Assembly: GCA_963743775.1 (NCBI GenBank)
Contig: CAVURA010000008.1
Location: 517,152 to 581,151 of the forward strand
DNA length: 64,000 nucleotides
Reading direction: 5' to 3'
DNA from: an uncultured Bacteroidales bacterium
GTDB taxonomy: Bacteria; Bacteroidota; Bacteroidia; Bacteroidales; VadinHA17
The notes beneath the pieces are model-generated. The model did not search any database, was not told the origin of the DNA, and saw only the letters and a program-made list of their open reading frames with translations. Positions 8,089 through 60,077 of this stretch are shown here, in pieces. Numbering within the stretch: position 1 is the stretch's first letter; every line of letters begins with the position of its first letter. The translations under genes and the position numbers were made by a program.

Positions 8089-9143
8089 GTGAAAGAAAAA
8101 GCCAACATCATCCCCCTGGCAGGCCTGGATCTCACGAAAACGGAGGACCTGCTGGCGCGTACTGACATTGAACGCCGTTACGCCCGTCGCATCCTGTACT
8201 GGATATACAAAAAGGGTATAAGGGCATTCAGTGAAATCAACGACATTCCCAGGGCGGTGTTGTCATTGCTTTCAGAAAGCTTCAGCACAGGTCTCAGTGA
8301 ACCTGTATCGACAGTAGCTTCCGCAGACGGTAGCGTAAAGTATCTTTTCAGCACGGATAATGCTCTTCTTCACGAAGCAGTATACCTACCTGACGGCAGG
8401 CGCGAAACGGTATGTATTTCAGTTCAGTCAGGATGCCGCATGGGTTGCAGCTTCTGTGCAACAGGACAGAACGGATGGAGAGGTAACCTTACAGCCGGTG
8501 AAATTGTCAACCAGGTTGTCAGTCTGCCGCATAAGGTGACTCATGTGGTGCTTATGGGAATGGGTGAACCTGGCGATAATATTGACGAAGTAATAAAGGC
8601 ATTAAGGGTGCTCACCGCTGAGTGGGGAATGGCAATAGGAAAGAGGAGGGTAACCGTTTCAACTGTTGGCATTACGCCTGCGGTAAAAAGACTCCTTGAT
8701 GAAACTGAATGCAACATCACCCTCAGCCTTTATTCTCCTTTCCTGAAGAGAGACTGGAGGCAATATCGGCGGAGAACGCATGGCCTTTCAAAGAAACACT
8801 GGACCTGATGAAGACAACCATGACAGGCTGCGACAGGCGTTTTACTGTCGCTTACGTTATGATTAAAGGGAAAAATGACACGGATAAGCATCTTGAGGAA
8901 TTAAAAAGGTTACTTTCGGGAACAGGCATCAGAGTCAATCTTCTTCCTTATCACAACACGGGAACAGACGATGACAGGAGCGCTGACAGTGCGACAATGA
9001 TGAGATTTAAACATCATCTGGTAACCTCCGGGGTCGGTGCTTCAGTGCGTAAATCCAGAGGTCTGGATATTGAGGCTGCATGCGGCATGCTGGCAGCGGG
9101 CATTAGAGCAGGGGGCAGTATGCAGAACAACAAGAAAGAATAA
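8089..9143 (+). pseudogene. rlmN: 23S rRNA (adenine2503-C2)-methyltransferase RlmN (radical SAM), split by one frame break near 8739-8741
   Basis: Two overlapping ORFs (8089-8808 and 8709-9143) together give a ~351-aa RlmN. Motifs: CRMGCSFCATG (CxxxCxxC), MGMGEP, and C-terminal GLDIEAACGML. Restoring one T in the cc-ttt-cc run gives the continuous LSLYSPFPEERLEAI. The start codon is GTG at 8089. Confidence 0.85.
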
Positions 9144-10834: not shown

Positions 10835-11365
10835 TTATTTTGCGGGGTTCAGCATCTGAAGCATATATTCGGTGACGAACCTTCCGTCAGTCCTTACCCA
10901 TTCTTTTTTTTCGGCACTGCGGACAAAACCGTGGCGCAGGAAGAGGTTCATGCTTTCTTCATTGCCTTCGAGGATGTTACACCACAACTGATGCAGGTTG
11001 AGTGTCTCAAAGGCATATCTGATGATGCATTCCAGGGCTGCCGAACCGTAACCTTTTCTCCTGTCGTCCGGGTCAGCGATGAGTATGCCTACGCCAGCCC
11101 TCATGTGATAATGATCAAAATCGAAGAGGTCGATCGTCCCGACAGTCCTCTTTCCGGAAGTGACATCAATCATCAGCCTCAGCTGTCCTGTCTCAAAAAG
11201 ACTTTTATGTGAATTGGCAATATACCGCTTCAGTGTATATCTGGAATAGGGAACAAGCGTATTGCTCTGTTTCCAGTTTGCTTCCTCATTCTCCCAGGTG
11301 TAAAGGAGTTCAAGATCCTCAGGTTCAACTGCTCTCAGCCTGACAATGTCACTTTCGAGAATCAT
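10835..11365 (-). CDS. GNAT family N-acetyltransferase (RimJ/RimL-like)
   Basis: The domain starts at MILESDIVRLRAVEPEDLELLYTWENE, and the acetyl-CoA motif is RRKGYGSAALE. I chose the start at the ATG at 11365. The longer track ORF reaching 11518 would run through the 3' end of the upstream gene. Confidence 0.75.
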   Translation of the reverse strand: MILESDIVRLRAVEPEDLELLYTWENEEANWKQSNTLVPYSRYTLKRYIANSHKSLFETGQLRLMIDVTSGKRTVGTIDLFDFDHYHMRAGVGILIADPDDRRKGYGSAALECIIRYAFETLNLHQLWCNILEGNEESMNLFLRHGFVRSAEKKEWVRTDGRFVTEYMLQMLNPAK

Positions 11366-12995: not shown

Positions 12996-13062
12996 TTTTC
13001 TTTTTTACTACAACATTATTTCTTCCCGGTCATCATCATACAATGACCTTCCCTTGCCAGTA

Positions 13063-20915: not shown

Positions 20916-21671
20916 TCCTGTGCCGGTTGCAGTGTTCGTTGTTTCCGAGCCCTCTGTACCCGTATCTCCTTCTTCATCCTCTTCTTCCTCACGTTTAGGC
21001 TTGATGATCACCTTTATTTTCTTGTAGGGGATTGAAAAAGATATATAGTACTCAGCTCCCGTTCTCATGCCCTTGGTGGCATCGCCGTAACCCGGCATCC
21101 ACATTGGTTTGAGGTCCTCGCCTGCGCCTGCGCTTATCAGCAGCCTCATATAGACATTCCATCCCATGGTGACACCTTTAAACAGCTCGGTCCGCACTCC
21201 CGGTGTGATCTCAAGAAAATGTCCCGTATAGCTGGCAAGAGGCATCGATGATTCGCCTTCTCCCCATGCATTTGTGTATTTAATGCCCGACGCTTCCTGG
21301 CTGTAAAAGCTGAGCCCGTACCTGAGGCCGATGCCGGCATAGTATTTGCCCCGTGCTGTTTTAGGCTTCATGAAGTTGTAGCCTGCGCCAATGACAAGGC
21401 TGGTACCCTGGCTGCTGTAATCGTAGTTGTACTCTACCGATGAAAATGAGGTGTACCTTAATCCCGCATCCAGGGAGAGGGCCTGATTTAGATCCAGGGA
21501 AGCAAGCACTCCGTAACTGCGTATGTCATTGTTCAATAAATGTAATATTGGTCCTGAGATATCAAATCCTGCCCGGATATGCAACGGAACCGTTACGGTG
21601 TCCTGTGACACCGCCCTGCTGCCAATAAGGAGAAAGAGACTAATAAAACAGATGCAGGTTCGTTTTGCCAT
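20892..21671 (-). CDS. Putative outer-membrane beta-barrel protein with an acidic/Thr-Gly-rich C-terminal tail
   Basis: 259 aa with a signal peptide (CICFISLFLLIGSRAVSQ). It has alternating hydrophobic beta-strand patterning and many aromatic-Gly turns. The tail is KPKREEEEDEEGDTGTEGSETTNTATGTG. I can assign no confident family. Confidence 0.5.
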   Translation of the reverse strand: MAKRTCICFISLFLLIGSRAVSQDTVTVPLHIRAGFDISGPILHLLNNDIRSYGVLASLDLNQALSLDAGLRYTSFSSVEYNYDYSSQGTSLVIGAGYNFMKPKTARGKYYAGIGLRYGLSFYSQEASGIKYTNAWGEGESSMPLASYTGHFLEITPGVRTELFKGVTMGWNVYMRLLISAGAGEDLKPMWMPGYGDATKGMRTGAEYYISFSIPYKKIKVIIKPKREEEEDEEGDTGTEGSETTNTATGTGSFSGGRR

Positions 21672-22107
21672 TCAGGTTCACGCTTTTGTTCTCAATAATG
21701 AGTGTGTCAATGATATTGTGTGTGGTACTGAGGTCTGTCAGCTCGCTCACGATTGTATATCCGCATTCATCAGAGACAAGGTGTGGATGACGGGTGTAAT
21801 TCATTACCGCAGTGTCTGTAATCCCGTCAAGAACGATATAAAATGTCGAGACGTCATTGCCGGGATCAAGAGGCAGGGAAAAGGATGAAACGGTCTTTGC
21901 ATTCACAAATTCAATTGTGTCAGTGGCAGTGATACCGGTTATAACTATACTGGTGGCCTTGACTGACACGCCCGTGCCGCTTTCAAGCAGCAGGGAGTTC
22001 ATCATCGGGTCCGTATTATCATAACATGCCTGCTCCCCGCATGATTCCAGAAGCAGAACCAGCGTCATAATCGCGCTGACAACAGATATGGACCTTACCC
22101 CTTTCAT
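21640..22107 (-). CDS. Hypothetical lipoprotein
   Basis: 155 aa with a lipobox-like LLLESC. It lies immediately downstream of alaS and overlaps the next gene by 32 nt. No recognisable catalytic motif. Confidence 0.5.
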   Translation of the reverse strand: MKGVRSISVVSAIMTLVLLLESCGEQACYDNTDPMMNSLLLESGTGVSVKATSIVITGITATDTIEFVNAKTVSSFSLPLDPGNDVSTFYIVLDGITDTAVMNYTRHPHLVSDECGYTIVSELTDLSTTHNIIDTLIIENKSVNLNGKTNLHLFY

Positions 22108-22116
22108 ACAGCTGCC

Positions 22117-24753
22117 TTAAAAAGCTCTCTTTACAAGTGAAACGGCCTTTTCGACGGCTTCGCTGAGGCCCTCCGGTCTTTTACCCCCGGCTGTCGCAAG
22201 GAAAGGTTGTCCTCCTCCTCCTCCGTTGATAAAGACTGACACGGACCTGATGATCTCAACCGCACTCAGGTCCGAAATCCTGATGATCTCTTCCCCCAGA
22301 CTGACCAGCAGCGATGCCTTGCCTTCGTTAGAAGATCCGATAATCACTGCACTGTTGCTGTCAGCCTGCCTGATCTGGTGGGCAATATTTTTAAGTGTTT
22401 CTGCCGGCATCTCTTCCAGAACACCTGAATAAATCTTACAGCTGCCCGCCGCAACTGCTTTGTTTTCAAGCTCAATGCGTGCAGCAGTGGCTGCAGTAAT
22501 CTGCATCCTTTCAATTGTATGTCTCAGTGAGCTGTTTTCTGTCATCAGTTTCGAGACATTGGAGGCGGGGTTCCCCGTGCTCCTCAGCATAATTGTAATC
22601 TCGTCTAGGGTTTTTAATTTCTCATTTACATATGACAGTGCCTGACGTCCTGTTACAGCTTCAATCCGTCTCACCCCGGCTGCCACGGCACCTTCTGAAA
22701 TGATCTTGAATAGGCCTATTACGGAGGTATTACTGACATGTGTGCCACCGCAGAGCTCCACTGAATCGCCGAATGTCACTACCCTGACCCTGTCACCGTA
22801 TTTTTCTCCGAAGAGGGCCATTGCCCCCATGGCCAGAGCCTCCTCCATCGGTGTGTCATCGTGCACTTCAGAGACAATGTTCTTCATGATCATTTCGTTG
22901 ACTTTCTGCTCCGCGGCTGCGATCTCCTCAGCGGTCACCTGCCTGAAGTGGCTGAAATCAAACCTTAGCTTCTCTGGTGTGACAAGAGATCCTTTTTGCT
23001 CAACATGCTTTCCAAGTACCTCTCGCAGTGCATGATGCATAAGATGAGTTGCCGTATGGTTATTAGCCGTCTGTTGTCTGGCTTTACCGTCGACAATGGC
23101 TGTAAATGGCTGCGATGGGTCTGATGGAACTCTTGCCGCCAGATGGATGACGAGGTTGTTTTCCTTTATTGTATCACTTATTATGATCTTTTCATTTCCT
23201 GCGGAGATAAACCCCTTATCTCCTGCCTGACCGCCGGACTCGGCATAAAAAGGTGTCCTGTCAAAAACAAGATGAACCAGTTCCGTTCCCCTGGCATTGA
23301 CTTTCCGGTACCTGGCGATGTGCACTGTATCTTCAGTGCGGTCATAACCAGTAAATACTGTTTTATCCACATCGGTAATCACAACCCAGTCCCCTGCCGT
23401 GACTGCAGCATCATCTCTTGACCTGCCTTTCTGGGCATTCAGTTCATTAGTGAACGCTTTCTCATCCAGGGTCATTTTGTTCTCCTTCAGTATAAGCTGT
23501 GTCAGGTCGACAGGAAAGCCGTAGGTGTCAAAGAGTTCGAATGCCTCCTTTCCGGGAAAAACACTCTGGCCTTCCTTTTTGAGTACTTCAACCCTGCGCT
23601 CGATCATCTTCAGTCCTTTACCGAGCGTTTTCAGGAATGCCTGTTCCTCTTCGAAGATGACCTTTGTAATAATCTCCTTCTGGGATGGCAGTTCCGGATA
23701 ATGTTTGCCCATTGACGTGATTAGAGCCGGGATCAGCTTGTAAATGAACGGTTCGGTCATCCCAAGGGAGGTATACCCGTATCTTACGGCCCGGCGCAGT
23801 ATTCTCCGGATAACATATCCGGCCTTGTTATTTGACGGCAGTTGACCATCTGCGATCGAAAAGGCCACTGTGCGCAGATGATCGGCTATGACTCGGTGAG
23901 CTATGTCCCAGGCTTCTTTTTCGCCGTATGGTTTATCAGTTACGGCCGCTGTGCTTGCAATCAGCGGCTGGAAGATATCAGTGTCGTAGTTCGATTTCCT
24001 GCCCTGTATCACCATGCAGAGCCGTTCGAACCCCATGCCCGTGTCGACGTGACGTTCCGGCAGCAACTCAAGTTCACCGCCAGCCTTGCGGTTATACTGG
24101 ATGAACACCAGGTTCCATATCTCTATTACATGAGGATGTCCTGTATTGACCAGCAGGTGACCAGGCTTTACGGACCGCTCGCTGTCAGATCTTATGTCGA
24201 TGTGTATCTCGGAGCAGGGGCCGCACGGACCTGTCTCACCCATCTCCCAGAAGTTGTCCTTCTTTGAGCCTTCAATAATACGGTTTTCAGGTTTTGAGAA
24301 ACATTTCATCCACTGTCCGGCAGCTTCATCATCGCGGGGCACATTTTCCTCAGGACTGCCCTCAAAGATCGTGGTGTAAATCCTGTCCTCGGGGATATGC
24401 AGACAGCCTGTAAGAAACTCCCAGGCCCAATCTATCGCTTCCTTCTTGAAGTAATCACCGAATGACCAGTTGCCCAGCATCTCGAACATGGTATGGTGAT
24501 ATGTATCAAGACCTACCTCCTCAAGATCATTATGCTTGCCGGACACACGCAGGCACTTCTGCGAATTAGCCACCCTTTTGTACTGCGCCGGCTGATTTCC
24601 AAGGAAGATATCCTTGAACTGGTTCATACCTGCATTGGTAAACATTAGCGTCGGGTCATTCTTGATCACCATCGGCGCCGAGGGTACGATTTTATGCTGT
24701 TTTGAACTGAAAAAATTCAGAAATTCCTCTCTGATCTCGGTGGCCTTCATCAT
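22117..24753 (-). CDS. alaS: Alanine--tRNA ligase
   Basis: 878 aa. Motifs: FTNAGMNQFK, the class II core, HTATHLMHHALREVLG, ELCGGTHV, and a C-terminal DHHA1-like GGGGGQPFLATAGG. Confidence 0.95.
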   Translation of the reverse strand: MMKATEIREEFLNFFSSKQHKIVPSAPMVIKNDPTLMFTNAGMNQFKDIFLGNQPAQYKRVANSQKCLRVSGKHNDLEEVGLDTYHHTMFEMLGNWSFGDYFKKEAIDWAWEFLTGCLHIPEDRIYTTIFEGSPEENVPRDDEAAGQWMKCFSKPENRIIEGSKKDNFWEMGETGPCGPCSEIHIDIRSDSERSVKPGHLLVNTGHPHVIEIWNLVFIQYNRKAGGELELLPERHVDTGMGFERLCMVIQGRKSNYDTDIFQPLIASTAAVTDKPYGEKEAWDIAHRVIADHLRTVAFSIADGQLPSNNKAGYVIRRILRRAVRYGYTSLGMTEPFIYKLIPALITSMGKHYPELPSQKEIITKVIFEEEQAFLKTLGKGLKMIERRVEVLKKEGQSVFPGKEAFELFDTYGFPVDLTQLILKENKMTLDEKAFTNELNAQKGRSRDDAAVTAGDWVVITDVDKTVFTGYDRTEDTVHIARYRKVNARGTELVHLVFDRTPFYAESGGQAGDKGFISAGNEKIIISDTIKENNLVIHLAARVPSDPSQPFTAIVDGKARQQTANNHTATHLMHHALREVLGKHVEQKGSLVTPEKLRFDFSHFRQVTAEEIAAAEQKVNEMIMKNIVSEVHDDTPMEEALAMGAMALFGEKYGDRVRVVTFGDSVELCGGTHVSNTSVIGLFKIISEGAVAAGVRRIEAVTGRQALSYVNEKLKTLDEITIMLRSTGNPASNVSKLMTENSSLRHTIERMQITAATAARIELENKAVAAGSCKIYSGVLEEMPAETLKNIAHQIRQADSNSAVIIGSSNEGKASLLVSLGEEIIRISDLSAVEIIRSVSVFINGGGGGQPFLATAGGKRPEGLSEAVEKAVSLVKRAF

Positions 24754-27250: not shown

Positions 27251-28352
27251 ATGGCGGCTACGCTGGGAGAATTCACTCACTGGCTTGAAGAACTTATTCC
27301 TCCTGCCTTTCAGGAACATTATGACAACAGCGGGCTGCAGGTCGGAGACCCGGAAGCTTTGACCGATTCTGTATTGCTTACTGTGGATGTCACCACTGAT
27401 GTAATTGCTGAGGCCAGGCAACACGGTTGCAACCTTATCATCTCTCATCATCCCCTCATCTTTACCCCGCTGAAACGTATTGCCGGCGGCAGTGAGACCG
27501 AGCGCTGTGTTGCTTCCGCTGTCAGAGCGGGCATTTCCATCTATTCAGCTCATACTAGCTTTGATAACGTTTCATGGGGTGTAAGTCATATACTCGCCGA
27601 AAAGATCGGACTGACGAAGATCAGGGTACTTGCTCCGCTGAAAGGCAAACTTTTGAAGATTATAACCTTTGTTCCCGTTTCCCATGCAGGCAGGGTCAGG
27701 GAGGCGCTCTTCGCTGCCGGTGCAGGTCATATTGGCAATTATGACCGCTGCAGCTTCAGCGTTTCAGGCGATGGGACGTACAGGGCAGGGGATGGAGCCA
27801 ATCCTTTTGCCGGACGGGTGGGAGAGGATCATTCCGAGCCGGAGATCAGGATGGAAGCTGTCGTGCCATCACATCTTTCCACCGCCTGCGTCAGGGCTCT
27901 TCTTGCGGCTCATCCTTATGAGGAGGCTGGCTTATGATATCATCGCCCTTGAAAATGAGTATCACGGCGCCGGCGCGGGCGCCATCGGCACTCTGCCCGT
28001 CGCGCTCACCGTGAACGCTCTGCTTGAGAGACTGAAGGAGCTTACCGGCATACCTGTAATACGTTACAGCGGCGACACCGCCCGCACTGTCAAAACCATT
28101 GCCGTGTGCGGAGGTTCAGGCTCCGACCTTATCAATGCTGCCGCCCGCGCCGGCGCCGATGCATTTGTCACCGGCGATATCAAATACCACGCTTTCATGC
28201 AGGCACCCGGTGACATGATCGTGGCCGATATCGGACACTATGAGAGTGAAAAATTTTCTTTAGAGCTCCTCTACGACCTGATTAACAAAAAATTTCCTAA
28301 ATTTGCACTCCGGTTTTCCGGGATAAAAACCAATCCGATTAATTATTATTAA
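27251..28352 (+). pseudogene. Nif3-like dinuclear metal centre protein (YqfO/GTP cyclohydrolase 1 type 2 family), split by one frame break near 27926-27929
   Basis: ORFs 27251-27937 and 27669-28352 join as ...AHPYEE-x-AYDIIALENEY... The motifs LIISHHPLIF and DIGHYESE are present, as is the PII-like insert typical of long Nif3. One extra nucleotide in gag-gag-GCTG-gct explains the split. Confidence 0.8.
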
Positions 28353-31904: not shown

Positions 31905-33065
31905 TTATTTTTTACTTACGTTCCGCAGTGAGTCAAACTCAAAGCCGAGAGAGAATCTAAGTGTGCGGGCCAGCGGATTGTTCTGAGTTATCGGTATAAG
32001 GTATGAAAAGTCGAGTGAGAAGACACTCAGCCTGAATCCCGCCCCTGCAGTGAAGTACTTCATATTGCCCTTGCAATCTGCCTGGTTGAAATAACCTGTC
32101 CTCAGGGCAAACTGCTGGTTATACCAGTACTCAATGCCGATTGATTCTGTTATTTCATGCATTTCCTCACCGAATCCGTTGGGGGCATCATAGAACGACT
32201 GGAAGATAGCCACCGGCACAGAGACGTTCGGATCCCTGCCTGCAACTATTTCCCCGTCTTCATAAACGGGAGGCGTTGGTACCAGCAGTTTGTTAATGTC
32301 AAAAGAGATTCCAATTGAGTTGTACCTGTCAAGGTCAACCATGAATGTGGTTCCCAGCCGCATATTCATGGGAATGAAATCAGGATCTTCGTCAGATGTG
32401 TAGCTCATCTTCGAACCAATGTTTGAAAAATTCATTCCGGCAGAAATTTTTCCTGTCTTCGAACCCAGCTTTAAAGCTGTTGTATAATAAGCGGATGCAT
32501 CAGCTGCATAAGAAGTACCTGCTTTGGTCTCCGTGCTGCCAACATATTGTCCTCCCGTGATATTTGAATAGATGAACCGCAGGGCTACACCTCCTGACCA
32601 GTGCTCGGAAAAAAGGCGGGAGTAAGCTACGTCAACGGAGAATTCGTTGGGATTATGTGTGCTCTGGTAGTTGCCGTAATCGTCAGTGAACTGTATTTCT
32701 CCCAGTGATGAGTACATCAGGCTGCTGGCAAGCACCTGCTTGCTGTCAATCCTGTAATAACCAGTCAGCAGTGCCAGGTTGATATCCGGCACAAGAGCCC
32801 TGAGCCACGGTGAATATGACATTGCGAAACCTCCGTTACCGTCAATAAATGCATATTTGGCCGGGTTCCAGTGCATGCTGTAAAGATCAGGTGATGTTGC
32901 AACACCGGCATCACCAATCGCACCGGCGCGGGAGTCAGGCGCGATGGTAAGAAACGGTACCACCGTCTGAATGACATTAAGAGGATGCTTGTCCTGTGCT
33001 GCAAGTGGCATCAGCAGTGCCGTTAAAAGAAATATAGTACTGAATATCAGCGCCTTGTTTTTCAT
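31905..33065 (-). CDS. porV: T9SS outer-membrane channel/shuttle protein PorV (LptO)
   Basis: 386 aa with a signal peptide. The hallmark N-terminal block is VVPFLTIAPDSRAGAIGDAGVATSPDLYSMHWNPAKYAF. The beta-barrel patterning ends in FSLGFEF. It lies directly downstream of porU, as in Flavobacterium johnsoniae. Confidence 0.8.
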   Translation of the reverse strand: MKNKALIFSTIFLLTALLMPLAAQDKHPLNVIQTVVPFLTIAPDSRAGAIGDAGVATSPDLYSMHWNPAKYAFIDGNGGFAMSYSPWLRALVPDINLALLTGYYRIDSKQVLASSLMYSSLGEIQFTDDYGNYQSTHNPNEFSVDVAYSRLFSEHWSGGVALRFIYSNITGGQYVGSTETKAGTSYAADASAYYTTALKLGSKTGKISAGMNFSNIGSKMSYTSDEDPDFIPMNMRLGTTFMVDLDRYNSIGISFDINKLLVPTPPVYEDGEIVAGRDPNVSVPVAIFQSFYDAPNGFGEEMHEITESIGIEYWYNQQFALRTGYFNQADCKGNMKYFTAGAGFRLSVFSLDFSYLIPITQNNPLARTLRFSLGFEFDSLRNVSKK

Positions 33066-33089
33066 GTTCCGTCAGAGTCATAATTTGTG

Positions 33090-33097
33090 CAAATATA
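33090..33097 (-). promoter_or_regulatory. Candidate -7 promoter box (TAnnTTTG) for porV
   Basis: The plus strand reads caaatata, which is TATATTTG on the minus strand, 25 nt upstream of the porV ATG. Confidence 0.3.
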
Positions 33098-33129
33098 TAA
33101 CAAAAAAAAGGCCGGGATATTGTGTCGTA

Positions 33130-36100
33130 TTACAAAATGATAATCCTTCCTGTTGCAGATGCCCTTTCTCCATCTGCCGTGACAGCTTCAGCACGCCACA
33201 GATACATTCCCCGCGCAAGCCTGCTGCCGTTTTCATTGCAGCCGTCCCATGGTATATCCGGAAGCGAATATCCGGTGCTGTAAAACTGTTCCCTGATGAT
33301 CCGCACTGTGCTGCCTCCGGTATTCAGGATTGTTAAAGTGACATCAATCTCTGTGTCAGGCCTGTTGTGCCCGGCGGTAAATGTTGCGGTTTCGGTAACT
33401 GGATTAGGGAAACAGAGAAGATCTGTTAGCCTGAAGACACCGCTTGTTTCAACAACAAACCTGAGGGTGGCAACTGAAGGGTTATTGACATTGTCCCAGG
33501 CCCTGAGTGAGACGGTATGTTCACCCTTTTCACTGATTACAAACGGGTAGGAGAGGCTCCCTGAAGTGTGCACCCCGATATCTGCACTGAACAACCCGTT
33601 CAATACCACTGCGTCCGGTCATATCATCATCGATCCATGCGATTATATCATGTCCGATGCCTGTTCCTGTGGCATTGACACCCGACTCATCACTGATAAG
33701 CGCAAGAAGCGAGGGTGCTGTGTCTGTGATCCCTCCTTCATTGAAGAGGGTGTCATTCATGATATAGCTTAATAACCGGACCTTCAGTGTCATTAATATT
33801 TATGTCTGAAAATCCTCCCACGACGATCTCAGAAAAACTGCCGTTAACATCCCCGTTGTCATCGTGGGCATAATAGGTTATAAAACCTTTCCCGAAGGAA
33901 TAATTTATATCCAGGGGCACAATGAATGAAAAGCTGAATTTTCCATCATTGACAGTTGTGGTACCTCTGAAGATCACATTACCTGTCACCGGGAAGCTCA
34001 TCGGCGACCCTCCGTCATTGGCAAGGGTGCTGACAGTGCTGACTTTATCGTAAACAACAGGCTCCACCACTCCGTTGAACCCATCCATACTGTTACCGGC
34101 ATTGTCTTCAATATGGCCGGTTATGGTTATCAGCGACAGACGCCTTAAGTGTATCCGTAGCGACCTCCACAGACACGCTGTTAATACTGTCAGTGACCAC
34201 CCGTCCCTGCACTGGCCATGCAATCCTCAGAGCCGGATCACCGAGCAAAAGGAAATTACGTTTGTTCATCCCGGTGCCCGAATTGATCTTGGCCAGCCTG
34301 ATGATGTCGCCCAGTTTCATCGATCTGCCGTCCGGTGCCGTTGAGAAAATATAGTCGTAGATCCTTCGGTTAAGCATATAGTTCGGTGCCGAGTAAACGA
34401 CTCTGGTCGTGCTCATCAGCCCGATGCCTCCGCCTTCAGGATTAAGCAGGACCATCTCTCCGGCTGAGGTCCTTGACGAGATGAGGCCCGTCGCCTGGTT
34501 TATCTCCACATCATCAAACCTCGAGAATTCACATGTGGCTGTGATGAACAGGGGTAACATGTTTTTGTTCTTCCACGAATTTATGTCATCGGTCCTTACC
34601 ACTCTCTCATGTGCAAGACCGGATTCATTTCCGTGGCCTACATAATTAAGTATCAGGCACCCTGCCGCTATCCTGTTATTGATGGCTTTCTCAGCATCAG
34701 GATATGAGTTTCCTGTTGCTGTTGTAACCTGGCGGAAGGCGTCGAGATAAATCTTCTCCGCTGTGAGAGGCGGAGCAGCCTCCTTTGCAGCTACGGTGAG
34801 GTTCTCGGCATCCATCATGTGAAGGTTGGCATCTTCATCATCGGCCACCATGCACAACACATTACGCCAGGAACCCATTGCTGAGTTATCAATGTAAGAG
34901 GAGATTTTGCGCACCATGATTCCTGCGGCAGCGGTGTCAGACGCAGGCAACCGCCCGATGCCGATATCGAGAAAACCGTCTGCCTCACCCTCACCGTCGT
35001 CAAGAAGACCGTAAAAGTCGTCTGATGTGAAGGAGAGAACCCCGACGTGAGAGTTGACCGATTGCCATGTTGGGATAAATGAGGTGTTCCCGGGGGGAGG
35101 AGTTTTATTTTCATAGGATCCGTCACCAAACAGGAGGAGGTACTTCAACGGGGAGCCACCTTCAGTTCCCCTGCTGTAGATCATCCTGATGAAATTCCTT
35201 ATTGCCGCGGCATCGGGTATCCCTCCCGAAAATTCATTATAGATCTGCCCCGGTGTCACTATTATTGAGCTTGTACCGTCATCCGCCTGGTGGATATTGG
35301 CAATTCGTTGTGCATACTCTCTGAATAGGGGGTGCGTAACAATAATCATATCTGCCGTACCGAGCGCATGGAGATCCTGGTTTGGTAACAGGCTCCTTGC
35401 TTATTGAAGGGCGCAGTGCCTGTGCAGTGGCGAAGGCAACAAACTTGCGGAGGCTGTCAGTGGCGGCGATGAATATTGTGCTGCCTGCAAGTGAGGTTGT
35501 CTCCAACATTTTTGGAGCAAAGGGATCGGTAACATCCCATACCTGCAGTCCCGAAGATCCTGAGACAGTGAAGCGGGTCACCCCTGCAGGCTCAACACTC
35601 CGGCTGTCACTTATAAACAGCTGTTTATCAGTGGATTTTAACAGTGATCTGGCGAAGAAATCAATATAATCTATATAACCTGTCGCTGCAAGGTTGCCGT
35701 TATTCCTGAAAGTGACTGTGAATGACGGTGCGGTGGAAGCCGGAAGGCACGAATCCTGCTTGAAGGCAATGTTGGCGTAAACACCGTTAAGATCTGTCAT
35801 ACTGACCGGTGGAACAGAGACCGTTTCCAACACAGTTGATCCCTGTTTGAGTATGAATGAGCTTTCAGTGTCAGAACGGCCCAATACCCTCAAATTGTAC
35901 CTTATCTGTTCAGCAGTGACGAGGTCTTTAAACGGTGGGTTTACAGCGTTTTCTGTCCCGGGGATGACCTGCTGGTACCATTCCCTGCCTGAACTGATCA
36001 GGTTCACCGTTTCCTTTTCGTGCCTCCACATGACATCGCCTGAAGATGAGACCATATTGTGGGGTTGTGAAGGTGCCGGTTCATTGGCGACATGTGCAGC

Positions 36101-36541
36101 CCCGCCTGGTACGGATGTGATGAAATACCAGGCAGTGTCTGAATAGAAATGTCTTCTGTATTCGTATTTGTCAGAGTTCCTGTCGTAGATCCACCTGTGT
36201 GTGCCCTCGGCATAAAAGAGCAGGTAGTCGCCGTCATTGAAAATCCCATCGCTTCCGGCCTCAGTCTTATAAGCAATCTTTTTAAGGTCGTCAGGGGCGC
36301 TGCCGTCGTTATAAAATGAGAGCTGACCTGTATTGTTTCCGTACAGCACTGCTGCTGAAGGGTCGGTGATGCCCATTTCCCTGATCTGTGAAAAGTCGAG
36401 GCGGTAAATACCCGCCTCAGTCACGGCAAGCCTGATCCATCTGCCCTGTTTCAGCAGTGATGAGTGCGCGTAATCCTGTCCCGCGGCATACAATACCGTA
36501 AGCAGGGCGAACACTGTGATCAGGAGCCTTTTTATTCTCAT
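33130..36541 (-). pseudogene. porU: T9SS sortase PorU (C25 gingipain-like peptidase), broken into five ORF fragments by four frame breaks
   Basis: The fragments 35279-36541, 34108-35349, 33753-34223, 33530-33793 and 33130-33609 are collinear with a ~1130-aa PorU. They cover the N-terminal SLLKQGRWIRLAVTEAGIYRLDF, the C25 core NQDLHALGTADMIIVTHPLF...YVGHGNE...ATCEFSRFD, then DTEGPVIKLY/MNDTLFNEGGIT, and a CTD-like end, CFPNPVTETATF...GMYLWRAEAV. The breaks are near 35381-35383 (A-run), 34131-34141, 33751 and 33605-33610. Confidence 0.8.
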
Positions 36542-36643
36542 AAGCGCAAAGATAGTTAAGAGGATTATCTTTACTCCCTGAAAGACGGGTACTCAGATAA
36601 AATATTAACGTCGCTGACCCGTTGATATTGCTGAAAACGAACC

Positions 36644-37609
36644 ATGAGCCTCAGAAACAGAGCCACCATACTGATGCTTGCTTTTTACTCTCTGACCATG
36701 AGCGGTCAGGACACCTGGTACGGCACTATGTCGGGAATGCATTTTATGTATAACCCGGCCTATACCGGTTCATCAGGTCTTCCGGTTATGAATATATCCT
36801 GCTACTCTTTCCTTCCGGGAAACAACTTTGCCCTCAGGTCAGGTTATGCCTCATTTGACACATATCTGCCGGGACTCCATGGCGGGGCAGGCCTGTGGCT
36901 TTCTGACGACATGCTCGGTGAAATAATAAATGAATTCAGGGCAGGAGCAACCTATGCATATCATCTGCAGGCCGGTAGGGACCTCTTTTTCAACGCAGGA
37001 CTGACAGCCTCCTTTGTGCACCGTGGGATAAACACTGGAGCGGTCATTCTTCCGGGTGACATTGATCCGTTCAACGGTTTTCAGGGAACGCATTCAGAGA
37101 ATATTACCGACGGTACCGTCACGGCTTTTGATATCGGCACCGGCGTTACCTTTGCAAAAGGGCCCTGGTACGGCGGGTTCTCCGTCATGCACCTGACACA
37201 ACCGTGGCTCAGTGATAATCATAATGAAAATGACAGGATCAGACGGCTTTACACTGTCAGCGCAGGAACCACTTTCAGTAACCGGAAGGAAGAATTCAGC
37301 CTCAACCCGTCAGCGACACTCCTTGTCCAGGCAGACAATGTGATCATTTATTTAGGAACAGAAGCTCTTTACCGAAGCCTGATGGGAGGAGTAGCCTTCT
37401 GGCATGCGGCCTCCGGGTTTACTGCGGCAGAGCCTTCGCTGGGATGGGATACGGGATCGGCAAAAATCATATTATCATATAGTTACGTGCTGTCAGGAGG
37501 TGATACCGCAATTAAAGGTACAGCGATTGTGAAGGCAGGATTGGCTATTTGTTTCAATAATGTTGAAAAAAGTAGAGCCATTCACATAATAAAGTTACCT
37601 GATTTGTAG
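36644..37609 (+). CDS. PorP/SprF family T9SS-associated outer-membrane protein
   Basis: 321 aa with a signal peptide and an N-terminal MHFMYNPAYTG resembling the PorP/SprF YMFN.L..NPAYAG motif. Beta-barrel patterning follows, and the gene sits among T9SS/gliding genes. Confidence 0.7.
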   Translation: MSLRNRATILMLAFYSLTMSGQDTWYGTMSGMHFMYNPAYTGSSGLPVMNISCYSFLPGNNFALRSGYASFDTYLPGLHGGAGLWLSDDMLGEIINEFRAGATYAYHLQAGRDLFFNAGLTASFVHRGINTGAVILPGDIDPFNGFQGTHSENITDGTVTAFDIGTGVTFAKGPWYGGFSVMHLTQPWLSDNHNENDRIRRLYTVSAGTTFSNRKEEFSLNPSATLLVQADNVIIYLGTEALYRSLMGGVAFWHAASGFTAAEPSLGWDTGSAKIILSYSYVLSGGDTAIKGTAIVKAGLAICFNNVEKSRAIHIIKLPDL

Positions 37610-37682
37610 TTATTTTGTTGCAGCGTTTTGTTTTTGAGTAATATATTGAATTGAAATTTAAACTAGTTAACATAATTTGACC

Positions 37683-39170
37683 ATGTATAAACTTAGAGCT
37701 TTACCGGTATTTATAGTTGTTGCGCTCTTTATGTTTTCTTGCAAGGGAGCACAGCAGGACAATGTGTCTCCGACTACAGGCTGGAGTTACCGGGATCCTA
37801 AATCGAGTGATGTGAATGACCTTGGCTATCCCATAGGGGAAGCATCAGAACAGGTCACCGGTCCCAACCTTGTACTCATTGAAGGTGGAACATTCACCAT
37901 GGGCCGGGTTGATCAGGATGTGATGTTCGAATGGAACAATACACCCCGCAGGGTCACAGTATCCTCATTCTACATGGATGAGACCGAGGTTACCAACCTC
38001 GATTACCGTGAATACCTTTTCTGGCTTAGACGAGTCTACAGTGATTATCCGGAAGTACACCGCCGCGCTCTCCCCGACACATTGGTATGGAGAAGTCCGC
38101 TTGCTTTCAACGAACCGTATGTTCAGTATTATTTCAGACACCCTTCATACAATACCTATCCGGTAGTGGGTATAAGCTGGCTGCAGGCCAATGACTATTG
38201 TGTATGGCGTACCGACAGGGTTAATGAGCAAATTCTTCTTGACAGCAAATGGCAGGAACCCAACGTTGAACAGTCCGGTGCCAATAACTTCAACACTGAA
38301 TCTTATTATGCTGCCCAATATGAAGGAGTACCCGGAGAAAGGGTTGATGAGCTTCACGCACGTGTACGCCAGGAGGATGGTATCCTTTTGCCGCGTTACC
38401 GGCTGCCGACTGAAGCAGAGTGGGAATTTGCTGCCTACGGTCTGAGGGGTAACACCTTCGAGGAAAGAATTTATGAAAGAGCTATTTATCCGTGGGACGG
38501 ACATAATGTACGTAACTCGGCACCCAAATACAGAGGTGAGTTTATGGCCAACTTTGTCCGCGGTCGCGGTGACATGATGGGCGTGGCAGGTAATCTGAAC
38601 GATGCCGGTAGCATTACAGTTGACGTAAGATCTTACTGGCCCAATGATTATGGCCTATATTGCATGGCAGGTAACGTCAATGAATGGACACAGGATGTAT
38701 ATCGTCCGCTCTCTTCAGAGGATGTCGATATGTTCAACCCGTTCAGAGGTAACGTATTCACTGATCTTCGCCGTGATGCAAACGGCCAGGTAGTTGAGAA
38801 AGACAGACTCGGCAGACTGCAGATTGATACTGTAAAGCCTGATGATGTAGCTAATAGGTTTAACTATCAGAAATCAGATTACAGGAACTACCTCGACGGT
38901 GATGTCGTCTCGAGCATCTCATCGAGCCTGGAATGGTCAGGTAACGCTGAACTGCCCCAGACAGAAAGAATGTATTCGCAGAATGAAACAGACAACGACT
39001 ATGTTACCCTTATTAATGATAAGGCAAGGGTAATAAAAGGCGGTTCATGGAAAGACAGGGCTTACTGGCTCAATCCTTCAACACGCCGTTATCTTGATCA
39101 GGAAGCATCACGCGATGACCTCGGATTCAGATGCGCAATGATCAGGGTGGGAAGTCCTGCCGGATTATAA
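37683..39170 (+). CDS. gldJ: Gliding motility lipoprotein GldJ (SUMF1/FGE-fold, non-catalytic family)
   Basis: Lipobox FSC. Motifs: LIEGGTFTMGR, WNNTPRRVTVSSFYMDETEVTN, LPTEAEWEFAA and IKGGSWKDRAYW. The porU-porV...gldJ-murF neighbourhood matches F. johnsoniae. Start chosen at the ATG at 37683. Confidence 0.75.
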   Translation: MYKLRALPVFIVVALFMFSCKGAQQDNVSPTTGWSYRDPKSSDVNDLGYPIGEASEQVTGPNLVLIEGGTFTMGRVDQDVMFEWNNTPRRVTVSSFYMDETEVTNLDYREYLFWLRRVYSDYPEVHRRALPDTLVWRSPLAFNEPYVQYYFRHPSYNTYPVVGISWLQANDYCVWRTDRVNEQILLDSKWQEPNVEQSGANNFNTESYYAAQYEGVPGERVDELHARVRQEDGILLPRYRLPTEAEWEFAAYGLRGNTFEERIYERAIYPWDGHNVRNSAPKYRGEFMANFVRGRGDMMGVAGNLNDAGSITVDVRSYWPNDYGLYCMAGNVNEWTQDVYRPLSSEDVDMFNPFRGNVFTDLRRDANGQVVEKDRLGRLQIDTVKPDDVANRFNYQKSDYRNYLDGDVVSSISSSLEWSGNAELPQTERMYSQNETDNDYVTLINDKARVIKGGSWKDRAYWLNPSTRRYLDQEASRDDLGFRCAMIRVGSPAGL

Positions 39171-46400: not shown

Positions 46401-47692
46401 ATGACATACAAGGAAACCACGGATTATCTGTACAGTCTCCTGCCTGCCTATCACAGAATAGGAAAAGCAGCTTACAAGGGAGACCTGAACAATACGACAG
46501 AGCTCGACAGCTATTTCGGCCATCCGCATAAAAAGTTCCGTACCCTTCATGTGGCGGGCACCAACGGGAAGGGTTCCGTCTCTCACATGCTTGCATCAAT
46601 ATTGCAGGAAGCAGGATACCGGACAGGTCTGTATACATCGCCGCATCTCAGGGATTTCAGGGAACGGATAAGGCTGGACGGGGAGATGATCAGTGAGGAG
46701 GAGGTTATTTCTTTTGTTGAAAAACATGATGCTGATCATCAGAAGGATCGAACCTTCCTTCTTTGAGCTGACAGTGGCAATGGCTTTTGACTTCTTTGCC
46801 AGGATGGAAGCTGATGTCGTCGTTGTTGAGGTGGGTATGGGAGGAAGGCTTGATTCCACCAATATCATCACGCCTGAACTTTCCGTGATAACGAACATCG
46901 GGCATGATCACATGGAGTTTCTGGGCGATACGCTGGCGGCAGTTGCCGGAGAGAAAGCCGGCATCATAAAGGAGGGTGTGCCGGTGGTTATAGGTGAGAC
47001 ACAGCCTGAAACAGTGGATGTATTCGCGGCAAAAGCAGCTCAATTGAATGCTCTGGTGTCATATGCAGACCGGGAGTTCCTCTGCAGCCTTGGCAAAATG
47101 AATAATAGAAATGGTATCCGGGACTATATGCTGCAGGACCTCGTAGACCCGCATAACTACGCCGGGAACCACTCCGCTTGGCGGTCTTGCACAGCAGAAG
47201 AATATTCAGACTGTCGCTGCTTCTGTTAACATCATTTCGGTACCTTTTAATCTGACCCGTGATCATTTTGTAAATGGGGTAGCTAATGTCATCAACAACA
47301 CAGGACTGTTGGGGCGATGGCAGGTGCTTTCAGATTCTCCTCTCACTGTCTGCGACACGGGCCATAATCGTGAGGGGCTTGAATATGTCGTCAGACAGAT
47401 AAGTATAACACCCAAAAAGAAGCTTCACATGGTCATCGGCTTTGTGAACGACAAGGATCTGTCGCTGGTTCTGCCTCTTTTGCCGCGTGACGCCACATAT
47501 TATTTTACAAGGGCTTCAGTGCCCAGGGCGCTGGACGAGAAGGTGCTGAAAGCTGAGGCTGAGAAGTATGGAATATCAGGAAATAGCTACAAGACAGTGG
47601 CTGAGGCACTTGAGGCTGCCAGGACTTCTGCCGATACTGATGATATGATTTTTATCGGCGGATCAACTTTCGTTGTGGCGGAAGTTGTGTAG
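46401..47692 (+). pseudogene. folC: Folylpolyglutamate synthase/dihydrofolate synthase FolC, split by two frame breaks
   Basis: Three collinear frames: 46401-46766 (HVAGTNGKGSV P-loop), 46693-47229 (PSFFELTVAMAF...VEVGMGGRLDSTN...GHDHMEFLG), and a frame open from 47147 to 47692 (LGGLAQQKNIQT...CDTGHN...FIGGSTFVV). The first break is at the A5 run 46720-46724. The second lies within 47147-47175. Confidence 0.85.
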
Positions 47693-56140: not shown

Positions 56141-57389
56141 ATGATAAACAAGATAAGGATATTAAAAATTCCGGGAATGCTGAATAAAACCTGCATCTGC
56201 CTGGTCATGATGACTATTTTGTGGCCCGCTGCGATAACTTACGGCCATGAAATTGATGACAGAATACCTGAGAAACCGGAAAGAAACGGCCCTTCACTTG
56301 ATGCTGCAAGGGCATATATAATCTCTGAGGATTTCAACAAAGCTGTTTCCACATATGCAGTACTTCTTCAGAAAGATTCAGCCAGCACCTCTTTGAACGC
56401 AGAGTACGCCTATGCTCTGGCCCTGAATGGAATTTATGATGCAGCCCTTGCACGCCTCGATCGTGTATGGACCCCTAATTCCGGCAGCACCGACGTGAAT
56501 TTCTTTACTTCGCAGGTTTTTGCGCTTATGGGATATGACATGCTGGCAGTTGAGTTCGGTAATAAGATTGCTGCGGGAAGCACTCCGGCATGGATATCAT
56601 CAGCCGCACCCGGTTTCCTGAAGAATTACAGCGACCGGATGCCTGGAGACAACATGTCGGCAGATGGCGATGTTGTTGCGGATTTCAAGTCCGCAAACAG
56701 GCTTACGGCCCAGAATTATAATCTGATGTCTATTGCTATTTTTGAAGGAATTATCACCGCATACCCGGGTGAGTACCTTCCTTATGTAGGGTCAAGCATT
56801 GCACTTGAGAAAGCGGGCCTGAATGAAAAGTCGGCACAGACTATAGAACAGGCTCTTGCCATTCTGGGCGATAATACGGAACAGCAGGAAGCCAGACAGA
56901 TGCTGGAGACGACGGCTTGCCGACATCAAAGGCAAAACAACTGCGGCAGGAAAAAACAGCAGCACCAATCTTGTTGCGGCGGCAAAACCAGATGCAAAAG
57001 GGAGGCGTATGCTGGCTTATGCCGGCGGTATGTTCTCACCGTCATATCTGAGCCTGACAGGAAGAATCGGAACGTTCATATCGGGCGCCGGAAGTCTCTC
57101 TGCAGACCTTGGAGTCTCTTCAAGCGGAGGAAGTGCATCACTTAACCTTGGGGTAATGAATTTTTTCCGTCAGAAAATCTTCGCCGGCGGATACGGACTG
57201 GGTCTGGGATTTGGAGGAGGATCAACAACATTCAATATTAAAATTTCAGTGGGATTCAGCATAATGAATAAAGATAAGAATTCGAGCTGGGATATCTTTT
57301 TTGACGGTCAGCAACCTATTGGTTCTGAAGGATCTGCGACTGTGGTGGGCATGTCAATAGGACGAAGCGTTTATTTCGGTTCAAGATGA
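56141..57389 (+). pseudogene. Operon gene D: TPR-like N-terminal half fused to a Gly/Ser-rich beta-strand C-terminal half, with one frame break near 56905-56915
   Basis: ORFs 56141-57145 and 56856-57389 join as ...EQQEARQMLE/RRLADIKGKTTAAG... After the break the first frame becomes Arg/Cys-rich nonsense. The signal peptide is MLNKTCICLVMMTILWPAAITYG. The C-terminal half is MLAYAGGMFSPSYLSLTGRIG...GYGLGLGFGGGSTTFNIKISVGF. Confidence 0.5.
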
Positions 57390-59666: not shown

Positions 59667-60077
59667 TTGATCGGAACGCCGGTGAAAAAGACAGAAATCC
59701 CCCGAAATATTGATGAATACATTGCCGGTTGTCCTGAGCATGTACGGGGAAAATTGATGGAACTCCGGGCAGCAGTTAGGAAAGCAGCCCCGGGAGTTGA
59801 AGAAAAAATCAGCTACATGATGCCTGCTTTTGATCTTAATGGTATCCTGGTTTATTTTGCGGCGCAGACCAGACATATTGGCTTTTATCCGACATCCTCC
59901 GGGGTTACGGCTTTTAAGGATGAGATTGGAGATTATAAAAGTTCCAAAGGAGCAATTCAGTTTCCTATTGACCAGCCGCTTCCGCTTGATTTGATAGCCA
60001 GAATTGTAAAGTTCAGGGTCAGGGAAAATGCAGAACGTCATAAAATCGATAAAGAAGAAAGTGTTAGGTCATCATGA
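59667..60077 (+). CDS. DUF1801 (YdhG-like) domain protein
   Basis: IDEYIAGCPEHVRGKLMELRAAVRKAAPGVEEKISYMMPAF...IGFYP...KGAIQFPIDQPLP matches the YdhG/DUF1801 pattern. The start is uncertain: TTG at 59667 or GTG at 59682. Confidence 0.7.
   Translation: MIGTPVKKTEIPRNIDEYIAGCPEHVRGKLMELRAAVRKAAPGVEEKISYMMPAFDLNGILVYFAAQTRHIGFYPTSSGVTAFKDEIGDYKSSKGAIQFPIDQPLPLDLIARIVKFRVRENAERHKIDKEESVRSS

What the first reader, a model, noticed from the sequence alone, without database searches (positions are those of the whole stretch)
33130..36541. T9SS sortase gene porU carries four frame breaks while the rest of the T9SS/gliding cluster and the T9SS cargo genes are intact
Seen: five collinear ORF fragments reconstruct a full-length PorU, from the N-terminal domain through the C25 peptidase core to a CTD-like end. 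The breaks are near 35381-35383 (acc-AAA-cc run), 34131-34141, 33751 and 33605-33610. Only the first sits at a homopolymer. Four of the nine frame breaks I can find in 64 kb fall in this 3.4-kb gene. The other five are spread over about 60 kb, so a uniform error rate would predict roughly 0.3 breaks here. Intact genes in the window include porV (directly downstream), porP/sprF, gldJ, and two genes with T9SS C-terminal sorting domains (2489-5002 and 5233-5613). Established: PorU removes the CTD from T9SS cargo and works together with PorV. Inference: either porU is a decaying pseudogene in this lineage, which implies altered cargo processing or a second porU copy elsewhere, or this locus is a locally low-quality or strain-heterogeneous part of the assembly.
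Basis: partly seen in the sequence, partly recalled or inferred. Interest (0 to 1): 0.65.

Follow-up and report, generated by a model that had tools for sequence, protein, structure and literature searches.

The report
porU frame breaks are assembly errors
The four frameshifts that split the secretion-system gene porU are single extra bases, each a merge of two co-existing strain variants, so they are almost certainly consensus errors and the gene is intact in the organism.

Summary
On the minus strand of 33130-36541, five collinear ORFs together make up a PorU, and all four breaks shift the frame the same way. The pseudogene reading is not supported. Short-read contigs from eight public sediment and wetland metagenomes (five studies) all lack exactly one base at each break. 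None carries the window's form. Deleting 35387, 34139, 33760 and 33613 gives one 1135-aa ORF. It matches the NCBIfam PorU model end to end. It is 95-99% identical to six intact 1135-aa proteins in other assemblies. dN/dS against relatives is about 0.10. At each break the window's sequence is the superposition of two natural alleles seen in the same samples (for example GCG-TTG plus GCT-CTG gives GCGTCTG). Random insertions show this signature 10% of the time, so four of four has P about 1e-4. The window holds ten private 1-nt indels, nine of them insertions, and all are contradicted by short reads. Others hit housekeeping-type genes (rlmN-like, Mur-ligase/FolC-like). The closest reference genomes are Nanopore-only Flye+Medaka MAGs, and some have their own porU breaks. 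porU collects four of ten because it is two to four times more strain-variable than its neighbours. Verdict: collapsed-strain consensus artefact, of low biological interest.

The parts
33130..36541 (-). porU, the type IX secretion sortase. It is split into five ORF fragments in the window. After removing four single bases it is one 1135-aa ORF.
   Evidence: NF033707 T9SS_sortase PorU matches positions 2-1095 of 1095 at 1179 bits (cut-off 420). PF01364 Peptidase_C25 covers residues 398-773. The protein aligns at residues 25-1134 to P. gingivalis PorU, PDB 6za2.
35387..35388 (-). Break 1: one extra base in GT[T]A. Natural alleles are GTA (L001, L012) and GTT (L008). L019 has a shifted variant.
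   Evidence: Contigs lack one base at 35387, 35390 or 35393.
34139..34141 (-). Break 2: the window reads GCGTCTG, a merge of alleles GCG-TTG (L001, L020, X1-X3) and GCT-CTG (L019, L008).
   Evidence: In X6 and X8 the depth is fully split between gaps at 34139 and 34141.
33760..33762 (-). Break 3: the window reads TATCATG, a merge of alleles TAT-CTG (L001) and TAC-ATG or TAT-ATG (L019, L008, L012).
   Evidence: Two different single deletions reproduce L001 and L019 16-mers exactly.
33613..33619 (-). Break 4: the window reads ATGACCGGACGCA, a merge of alleles ATG-CCGGAC-GCA (L012, X1; L001 and L008 carry the near-identical CCGAAC form) and ATG-ACCGGA-GCA (L019, X2, X4).
   Evidence: The X4 contig over 33346-33697 is identical to the window except for this one base.
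31905..33065 (-). porV, intact, directly downstream of porU.
   Evidence: NF033710 at 474.8 bits (cut-off 250) and PF19572. The identical protein is found on five JGI contigs.
36644..37609 (+). porP/sprF family gene, intact, divergent from porU.
   Evidence: PF11751 and TIGR03519.
37677..39170 (+). gldJ-like lipoprotein gene, intact.
   Evidence: TIGR03524 at 430.6 bits, just under its 458.2 cut-off, and PF03781.
8743..8743 (.). Window-private 1-nt deletion that splits an rlmN-like radical-SAM gene (8089-9143). Same class of consensus error.
27930..27930 (.). Window-private 1-nt insertion that splits a NIF3/DUF34 gene (27251-28352). It lies inside a SNV-dense patch.
46735..47144 (.). Two window-private 1-nt insertions (46735 and 47142/47144) that split a Mur-ligase/FolC-like gene (46401-47692) into three ORFs.
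   Evidence: Gap placement differs between X1 and X2, which is the two-allele signature.
56911..56913 (.). Window-private 1-nt insertion that splits a TPR protein gene (56141-57389).
   Evidence: The gap is at 56911 in X4 and at 56913 in X1.
60038..60038 (.). Window-private 1-nt insertion in the 3' tail of the small ORF 59667-60077.

Best explanation
The organism is an uncultured freshwater-sediment Bacteroidales. It has an ordinary, intact porU-porV pair. PorU is a 1135-aa C25-type cysteine peptidase, the T9SS sortase that removes C-terminal sorting domains from cargo.

The four frame breaks are not in the organism's DNA. They are +1 consensus errors in a contig that collapses two or more co-existing strains. 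Where the strains differ by an SNV, by two adjacent SNVs, or by a compensated shift, reads of the two alleles align with offset gaps. The consensus then keeps a base from both alleles, so one base is added.

This accounts for three features. All porU breaks have the same sign. Nine of the ten private indels are insertions. None lies in a long homopolymer.

porU collects four of the ten because its within-population diversity is two to four times that of its neighbours, including a mosaic, recombinant-looking patch.

Shown here: the extra bases are absent from all short-read data; each break carries the allele-merge signature; the repaired ORF is intact and under selection; the same error class occurs elsewhere in the window and in related long-read MAGs. 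Inferred: the window itself comes from a Nanopore-only Flye+Medaka MAG.
For: (1): in eight runs from five studies, every contig crossing a break lacks exactly one base. In X6 and X8 the total depth is fully split between two gap placements, so two alleles co-occur in one sample. The X4 contig over 33346-33697 is 100% identical to the window apart from the extra base.

(2): JGI contig L001 is 98.8% identical over 6.46 kb and differs from the window by exactly four gaps, which are the four breaks. L019 and L020 behave the same way.

(3): removing four bases gives a 1135-aa ORF that matches the PorU model end to end. Six intact 1135-aa proteins at 95-99% identity exist.

(4): two different single-base deletions reproduce two different natural alleles at four of four breaks, with exact 16-mer matches for both alleles at breaks 3 and 4. 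Random insertions give this signature 10% of the time with the close relatives, so P is about 1e-4.

(5): dN/dS is 0.075-0.11 against nine relatives and 0.106 against the closest. The repaired frame has no internal stop.

(6): all ten window-private indels are contradicted by short-read contigs. Nine are +1 insertions (P = 0.02). They also hit rlmN-like and Mur-ligase/FolC-like genes.

(7): the nearest reference genomes are MFD MAGs, described as Nanopore-only, Flye-assembled and polished with one round of Medaka (PMC12313526). porU is broken only in long-read assemblies: once each in L011 and L012, at other positions, and four times in L018. It is never broken in short-read assemblies.

(8): porU divergence within the population is 1.8% against 0.4-0.7% for neighbours (L001), and 6.9% against 1.6% for porV (L019).

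(9): a contig of 0.2-1 Mb carries the window's PorV protein, which fits a long-read source.
Against: I could not see the raw reads of the sample the window was assembled from. No Nanopore run could be listed. Absence of the extra bases is therefore shown in related samples and assemblies, not in the source reads.

Logan contigs drop rare variants, so a minority frameshifted subpopulation cannot be excluded.

The k-mer test for the window's own form at break 2 rested on only two sampled words.

The source platform is inferred and not documented for this contig.

A test for SNV excess within 10-20 nt of the breaks was not significant. It is weak by design, because the gapped alignment absorbs the polymorphic site into the gap.
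Confidence: 0.93

Rival explanations
1. porU is a true, recently inactivated pseudogene in the particular strain that the window represents. Four real 1-nt insertions are present, while sister strains in the same sediments keep an intact gene.
For: The frame breaks are in the deposited sequence. They are clustered beyond a uniform expectation. The source reads were not inspected.
Against: None of eight runs holds the window's form at any break, including X4, whose contigs are nearly all at least 99% identical to the window. Each inserted base recreates the alternative allele at a polymorphic site (P about 1e-4). dN/dS is 0.106 against the closest relative, with no stops or larger lesions. The same kind of indel breaks housekeeping-type genes elsewhere in the window. 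porV, porP, the gldJ-like gene and the T9SS cargo genes are intact.
Confidence: 0.04
2. The extra bases are real but exist only in a minority subpopulation, that is, standing loss-of-function variants of porU. The assembler happened to pick them up.
For: Logan contigs drop rare variants, so absence from contigs does not prove absence at low frequency.
Against: Four independent rare variants would all have to be chosen by the consensus in one gene. Each would also have to mimic an allele merge. The same signature occurs in unrelated genes, at 47142/47144 and 56911/56913.
Confidence: 0.02
3. Programmed recoding: four +1 ribosomal frameshifts, or transcriptional slippage, restore a full-length PorU from the DNA as written.
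For: All four breaks need a +1 shift.
Against: Relatives at 95-99% identity encode the protein in a single frame, without the extra bases. The four sites share no motif and none is a slippery run. No independent DNA data set contains the shifted form.
Confidence: 0.005

Closest known systems
PorU (PG0026) of Porphyromonas gingivalis, T9SS sortase, PDB 6za2
   Same: The repaired protein aligns over residues 25-1134 to chain residues 29-1153 (E = 2e-130). It has the C25 peptidase core. The GHG histidine (H636 here) and the ITATC cysteine (C670 here) are both conserved. The gene lies directly upstream of porV, next to porP/sprF and a gldJ-like gene.
   Different: It is a distant orthologue from an uncultured sediment Bacteroidales. 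Nothing sets its function apart. As written in the window, the gene carries four artefactual +1 insertions.
Frameshift (indel) errors in Nanopore-only genome and MAG assemblies (Sereika et al. 2022, PMC9262707; MFD long-read MAGs, PMC12313526)
   Same: Single-base indels truncate genes in long, highly contiguous contigs. They are absent from short-read data. They also occur in sister MAGs L011, L012 and L018.
   Different: The classic description is of indels in homopolymers (PMC9262707). Here none of the porU breaks lies in a homopolymer of 3 or more bases. Nine of the ten indels are insertions, and each porU break sits at a strain-polymorphic site where it merges two alleles.
Genuine loss or decay of T9SS genes in host-restricted, genome-reduced Bacteroidota (from my general knowledge, not tested here)
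   Same: Such decay would also appear as a frameshifted secretion gene.
   Different: Here the frameshifts are not in independent DNA data, selection on the gene is strong (dN/dS about 0.10), and the rest of the T9SS and its cargo genes are intact.

Membership tests
PorU, T9SS sortase (NCBIfam NF033707 / Pfam Peptidase_C25) | Full-length match to the PorU equivalog model above its curated cut-off | tested here: met
   1179.1 bits against a cut-off of 420, model positions 2-1095 of 1095, using the ORF with four bases removed. PF01364 covers 1-374 of 374 with E = 6e-104.
PorU, T9SS sortase (NCBIfam NF033707 / Pfam Peptidase_C25) | Catalytic His and Cys of the C25/caspase-like fold conserved | tested here: met
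   YVGHG (H636) and ITATCEF (C670) align with YAGHG and ITATCDF of P. gingivalis PorU, 6za2. That the ITATC cysteine is the catalytic residue is from my knowledge of the literature, not from a tool result.
PorU, T9SS sortase (NCBIfam NF033707 / Pfam Peptidase_C25) | Genomic partnership with porV | tested here: met
   porV lies 64 nt downstream on the same strand (31905-33065). NF033710 scores 474.8 bits.
PorU, T9SS sortase (NCBIfam NF033707 / Pfam Peptidase_C25) | Single uninterrupted reading frame in the organism | tested here: met
   This is not met in the window as written. It is met in all short-read contigs and in the JGI, Logan and NCBI assemblies of the same population. The source reads were not inspected.
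PorU, T9SS sortase (NCBIfam NF033707 / Pfam Peptidase_C25) | C-terminal CTD-like Ig domain | tested here: inconclusive
   There is only a sub-threshold FlgD_ig hit (22.2 bits against a cut-off of 27) at residues 1060-1121. The PorU model does cover the C-terminus.
Decaying pseudogene | The disabling mutations are present in independent DNA data of the lineage | tested here: not met
   No contig in eight runs from five studies carries any of the four insertions. No run holds the sampled 31-mers spanning break 2 in the window's form (only two words).
Decaying pseudogene | Relaxed selection (dN/dS approaching 1), in-frame stops, larger deletions | tested here: not met
   dN/dS is 0.075-0.11 overall and no more than 0.36 in any fragment. 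The repaired frame has no internal stop, and the length is exactly 1135 aa as in relatives.
Programmed +1 frameshift | The shift site and the out-of-frame arrangement are conserved in relatives | tested here: not met
   All near-identical relatives are in frame at all four sites.
Collapsed-strain consensus error of a long-read metagenome assembly | The indel is absent from short-read data of the same population | tested here: met
   All ten window-private indels are absent.
Collapsed-strain consensus error of a long-read metagenome assembly | The indel sits at a site polymorphic between co-occurring strains, and the sequence is a merge of both alleles | tested here: met
   This holds at four of four porU breaks. 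The random-insertion control gives 10%, so P is about 1e-4. Both alleles are present in the same runs. The same pattern is seen at 47142/47144 and 56911/56913.
Collapsed-strain consensus error of a long-read metagenome assembly | The source assembly is long-read based without short-read polishing | not testable with these tools
   The window's record is not shown. The inference rests on three points. A 0.2-1 Mb contig carries its PorV. The closest GTDB genomes are MFD Nanopore MAGs (methods in PMC12313526). The best-matching runs are shallow Illumina runs from a single 2024 freshwater-sediment study.

The most novel reading that the evidence does not exclude
The frame breaks are artefacts, but what causes them may be real biology. 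porU may be a within-population hotspot of allelic diversity and recombination in these sediment Bacteroidales. Its divergence is two to four times that of flanking genes. It also contains a 48-codon mosaic patch that is L019-like (dS 0.06) inside an otherwise L001-like allele (dS 0.70 against L001 in that patch). This could reflect selection on a surface-exposed T9SS component, for example by phage or predators. The excess diversity is seen in short-read contigs, so it is real. That it is driven by selection rather than by neutral import of divergent DNA is speculation, because dN/dS stays at about 0.1.
Probability: 0.15. Interest if true: 0.35.

Novelty: not a real feature. Interest (0 to 1): 0.1.

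Why it matters
The biological finding is negative: there is no loss of the T9SS sortase in this lineage, and no altered cargo processing needs explaining.

The practical value is for annotation. Nanopore-only MAGs from strain-rich sediments can carry clusters of non-homopolymer +1 insertions at strain-polymorphic sites. A run of same-sign frameshifts in one variable gene then looks like a pseudogene. Pseudogene counts, T9SS presence or absence calls, and completeness estimates made from such MAGs will inherit this bias.

Two checks recognise the artefact. First, ask whether two different single-base deletions at the break reproduce two natural alleles. Second, ask whether all the breaks have the same sign.

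Tried and rejected
(1) I looked up the window's own 413-aa porU fragment in the assembly index to identify the source record. It is not on record.

(2) I searched for Nanopore runs that hold the region, so that source long reads could be laid on it. None was listed. An earlier attempt failed on query length.

(3) I ran a k-mer test for the window's own form of break 2. No run holds it, but only two sampled words were available, so this is weak support on its own.

(4) I tested for an excess of mismatches within 10 or 20 nt of the breaks in gapped alignments. It was not significant (P = 0.04-0.8). The gap absorbs the polymorphic site, so I replaced this with the two-allele deletion test and its random-insertion control.

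(5) I looked for a second PorU copy. There is none in the window. The rest of the source genome is not available, and the genome-contig scan did not return the source genome.

(6) I considered nanopore errors tied to homopolymers or methylation motifs. The ten indel contexts share no clear motif, so I did not pursue this.

(7) I considered that the haplotype switch around residues 928-975 might be an assembly chimera. This is rejected for its 3' boundary at break 4, because an X4 short-read contig is identical to the window across that boundary apart from the extra base. No identical contig spans the other boundary at break 3, so a consensus switch there is not excluded.
Full report
**What is in the sequence**

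On the minus strand of 33130-36541 there are five collinear ORFs of 420, 413, 156, 87 and 159 aa. A three-frame translation shows that they continue one another across four frame changes. tblastn of the reconstructed protein against the window returns exactly these five pieces and no other PorU-like sequence.

The frames step 1,0,2,1,0. Every break therefore needs the same correction: one base too many, or two too few.

- porV (31905-33065; NF033710, 474.8 bits)
- a porP/sprF gene (36644-37609)
- a gldJ-like gene (37677-39170; 430.6 bits, just under the 458.2 cut-off)
- murF
- two proteins with T9SS C-terminal sorting domains (2489-5002 and 5233-5613)

Two details need correcting. The first break is at GT[T]A (35387/35388), not in the AAA run. 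The other three sites are 34139-34141, 33760-33762 and 33613-33619.

**Independent DNA data**

The region is found in freshwater-sediment and wetland metagenomes. I laid the Logan short-read contigs of the four best runs, all from one study, on 33000-36700. Nextera adapter remnants show that these are Illumina libraries.

The only indel differences were one base left out at each of the four breaks. An X4 contig covering 33346-33697 is identical to the window apart from that single base.

Four more runs from four other studies, at 10-100x depth, gave the same result. At every break all of the depth lacks one base. In X6 and X8 that depth is split between two gap placements, 33614/33619, 33761/33763, 34139/34141 and 35387/35390, except at 33619 (break 4) and 35390 (break 1) in X8, where only one placement is seen. 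This split means that two alleles co-occur in the same sample. No contig in any of the eight runs supports the window's form.

**The repaired gene**

Deleting 35387, 34139, 33760 and 33613 gives a single 1135-aa ORF.
- It matches the NCBIfam PorU equivalog over positions 2-1095 of 1095, at 1179 bits against a cut-off of 420.
- It contains a complete Peptidase_C25 domain.
- It aligns at residues 25-1134 to P. gingivalis PorU (PDB 6za2), with the GHG histidine and the ITATC cysteine conserved.

The protein database holds intact proteins of exactly 1135 aa at 99, 98, 98, 98, 98 and 95% identity, from JGI, Logan and NCBI/ENA assemblies.

JGI contig L001 is 98.8% identical to the window over 6.46 kb. 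It differs by exactly four gaps, which are the four breaks. L019 and L020 encode a PorV identical to the window's and show the same gaps.

dN/dS of the repaired gene against nine relatives is 0.075-0.11, and 0.106 against the closest. There is no sign of decay other than the four extra bases.

**The error model for the whole window**

I laid the same four runs on all 64 kb. The window has ten private single-base indels:
- 8743 (one base missing)
- 27930
- the four in porU
- 46735
- 47142/47144
- 56911/56913
- 60038

Nine of the ten are insertions (two-sided P = 0.02).

The other broken genes are an rlmN-like radical-SAM gene, a NIF3 gene, a Mur-ligase/FolC-like gene (broken twice) and a TPR protein gene. 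It is not plausible that a free-living sediment bacterium carries frameshifts in all of these while sister populations at 99-100% identity carry none.

**Mechanism**

At each porU break the window is the superposition of two natural alleles.

| Break | Allele 1 | Allele 2 | Window |
|---|---|---|---|
| 1 | GTA | GTT | GTTA |
| 2 | GCG-TTG | GCT-CTG | GCGTCTG |
| 3 | TAT-CTG | TAC/TAT-ATG | TATCATG |
| 4 | ATG-CCGGAC-GCA | ATG-ACCGGA-GCA | ATGACCGGACGCA |

At breaks 3 and 4, two different single-base deletions each reproduce an observed 16-mer exactly. At break 2, one deletion does so exactly and the other matches an observed allele with one mismatch elsewhere in the 16-mer.

As a control, I made 5000 random single-base insertions in the repaired gene. 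They show this two-allele signature 10% of the time with the four close relatives. Four of four therefore has P of about 1e-4. With all nine relatives the figures are 37% and 0.018.

The same alternate-gap pattern appears at 47142/47144 and 56911/56913.

A consensus built from reads of two collapsed strains can align an SNV or a double SNV as two offset gaps. If it keeps both bases, it adds exactly one base. This explains the uniform sign and the lack of homopolymer context.

**Why porU**

Within the population, porU is two to four times more divergent than its neighbours:
- against L001: 1.8%, compared with 0.4-0.7% for the neighbours
- against L019: 6.9%, compared with 1.6% for porV
- against L020: 3.8%, compared with 1.1% for porV

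Against other species (L008, L012) porU is not exceptional.

The stretch between breaks 3 and 4 (residues 928-975) is L019-like (dS 0.06) but far from L001 (dS 0.70). The rest of the gene is L001-like. The X4 contig shows that the 3' boundary of this mosaic, at break 4, is natural. No identical short-read contig spans the other boundary at break 3.

More polymorphic sites give more opportunities for merge errors. That accounts for four of ten indels falling in 5.3% of the window (P = 1.3e-3 under uniformity). Short-read depth over porU is not unusually low. Depth in the source data is unknown.

**Likely source**

The closest species-representative genomes are 'MFD' MAGs with Flye-style contig names. 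The paper describing them reports Nanopore-only assemblies polished with one round of Medaka, with short reads used only for binning (PMC12313526).

Among the relatives, porU is broken only in long-read assemblies:
- L012 has its own +1 insertion in porU, and another in gldJ, at different positions.
- L011 has one break.
- L018, a Nanopore MAG from another project, has four breaks.
- All short-read assemblies are intact.

A contig of 0.2-1 Mb carries the window's PorV.

That the window itself comes from such an assembly is an inference. The record was not shown, and no Nanopore run could be listed. Frameshift errors in Nanopore consensus sequences are a known problem (PMC9262707). The non-homopolymer allele-merge form seen here is a particular variety of that problem.

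**Verdict**

The frame breaks exist in the deposited sequence, but almost certainly not in the organism. porU is an ordinary, intact T9SS sortase gene under purifying selection.

The pseudogene alternative is not.

The remaining uncertainty, about 5-7%, is only that the raw reads of the source sample were not examined. Biological interest is low. The useful lesson concerns annotation of long-read MAGs.

Noticed in passing
window 8743; 27930; 46735; 47142-47144; 56911-56913; 60038: There are six further window-private 1-nt indels, five insertions and one deletion. They split an rlmN-like gene, a NIF3/DUF34 gene, a Mur-ligase/FolC-like gene (twice) and a TPR protein gene, and alter the tail of a small ORF. 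All are contradicted by short-read contigs.
   Followed up: yes
window 33614-33760 (porU residues 928-975): This is a mosaic patch. It is nearly identical to the L019 allele (dS 0.06) but highly diverged from L001 (dS 0.70), while the rest of the gene is L001-like. A short-read contig (X4) confirms the junction at break 4 as natural, which suggests recombination between strain lineages inside porU.
   Followed up: partly
window 33130-36541 compared with its flanks: porU has two to four times the within-population nucleotide divergence of porV, porP and the gldJ-like gene. The PorV protein is identical on five JGI contigs whose porU alleles differ from the window by 2-7%.
   Followed up: partly
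L002/L012 (contig_42369 of MAG MFD05674.bin.2.111), equivalent to window 35307 and 38082: A sister long-read MAG has its own +1 insertions. One splits porU into 419 and 727 aa, and one truncates gldJ to 379 aa. Both are at positions different from the window's breaks.
   Followed up: yes
L018 3001-6413 (Salar de Ascotan sediment MAG, contig_1132_polypolish); L011 3001-6406: porU is in five pieces in an unrelated long-read MAG from another project, and in two pieces in another MFD MAG. Broken porU recurs in long-read MAGs.
   Followed up: partly
window 24123-24202: One X2 contig skips 78 nt (a multiple of three) inside the 878-aa ORF 22117-24753. This may be an in-frame length variant among strains.
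   Followed up: no
window 62530 and 63629: There are single-A insertions relative to the window in some runs only (X2 in part, X1). Other runs agree with the window. These look like true strain polymorphisms or short-read contig variants rather than window errors.
   Followed up: no
window 10835-12995, 13008-14343, 20892-22107: Pairs of long same-strand ORFs overlap in ways that look like frame breaks. Short-read contigs show no indel here, so these are probably genuine overlaps or spurious ORF extensions.
   Followed up: partly
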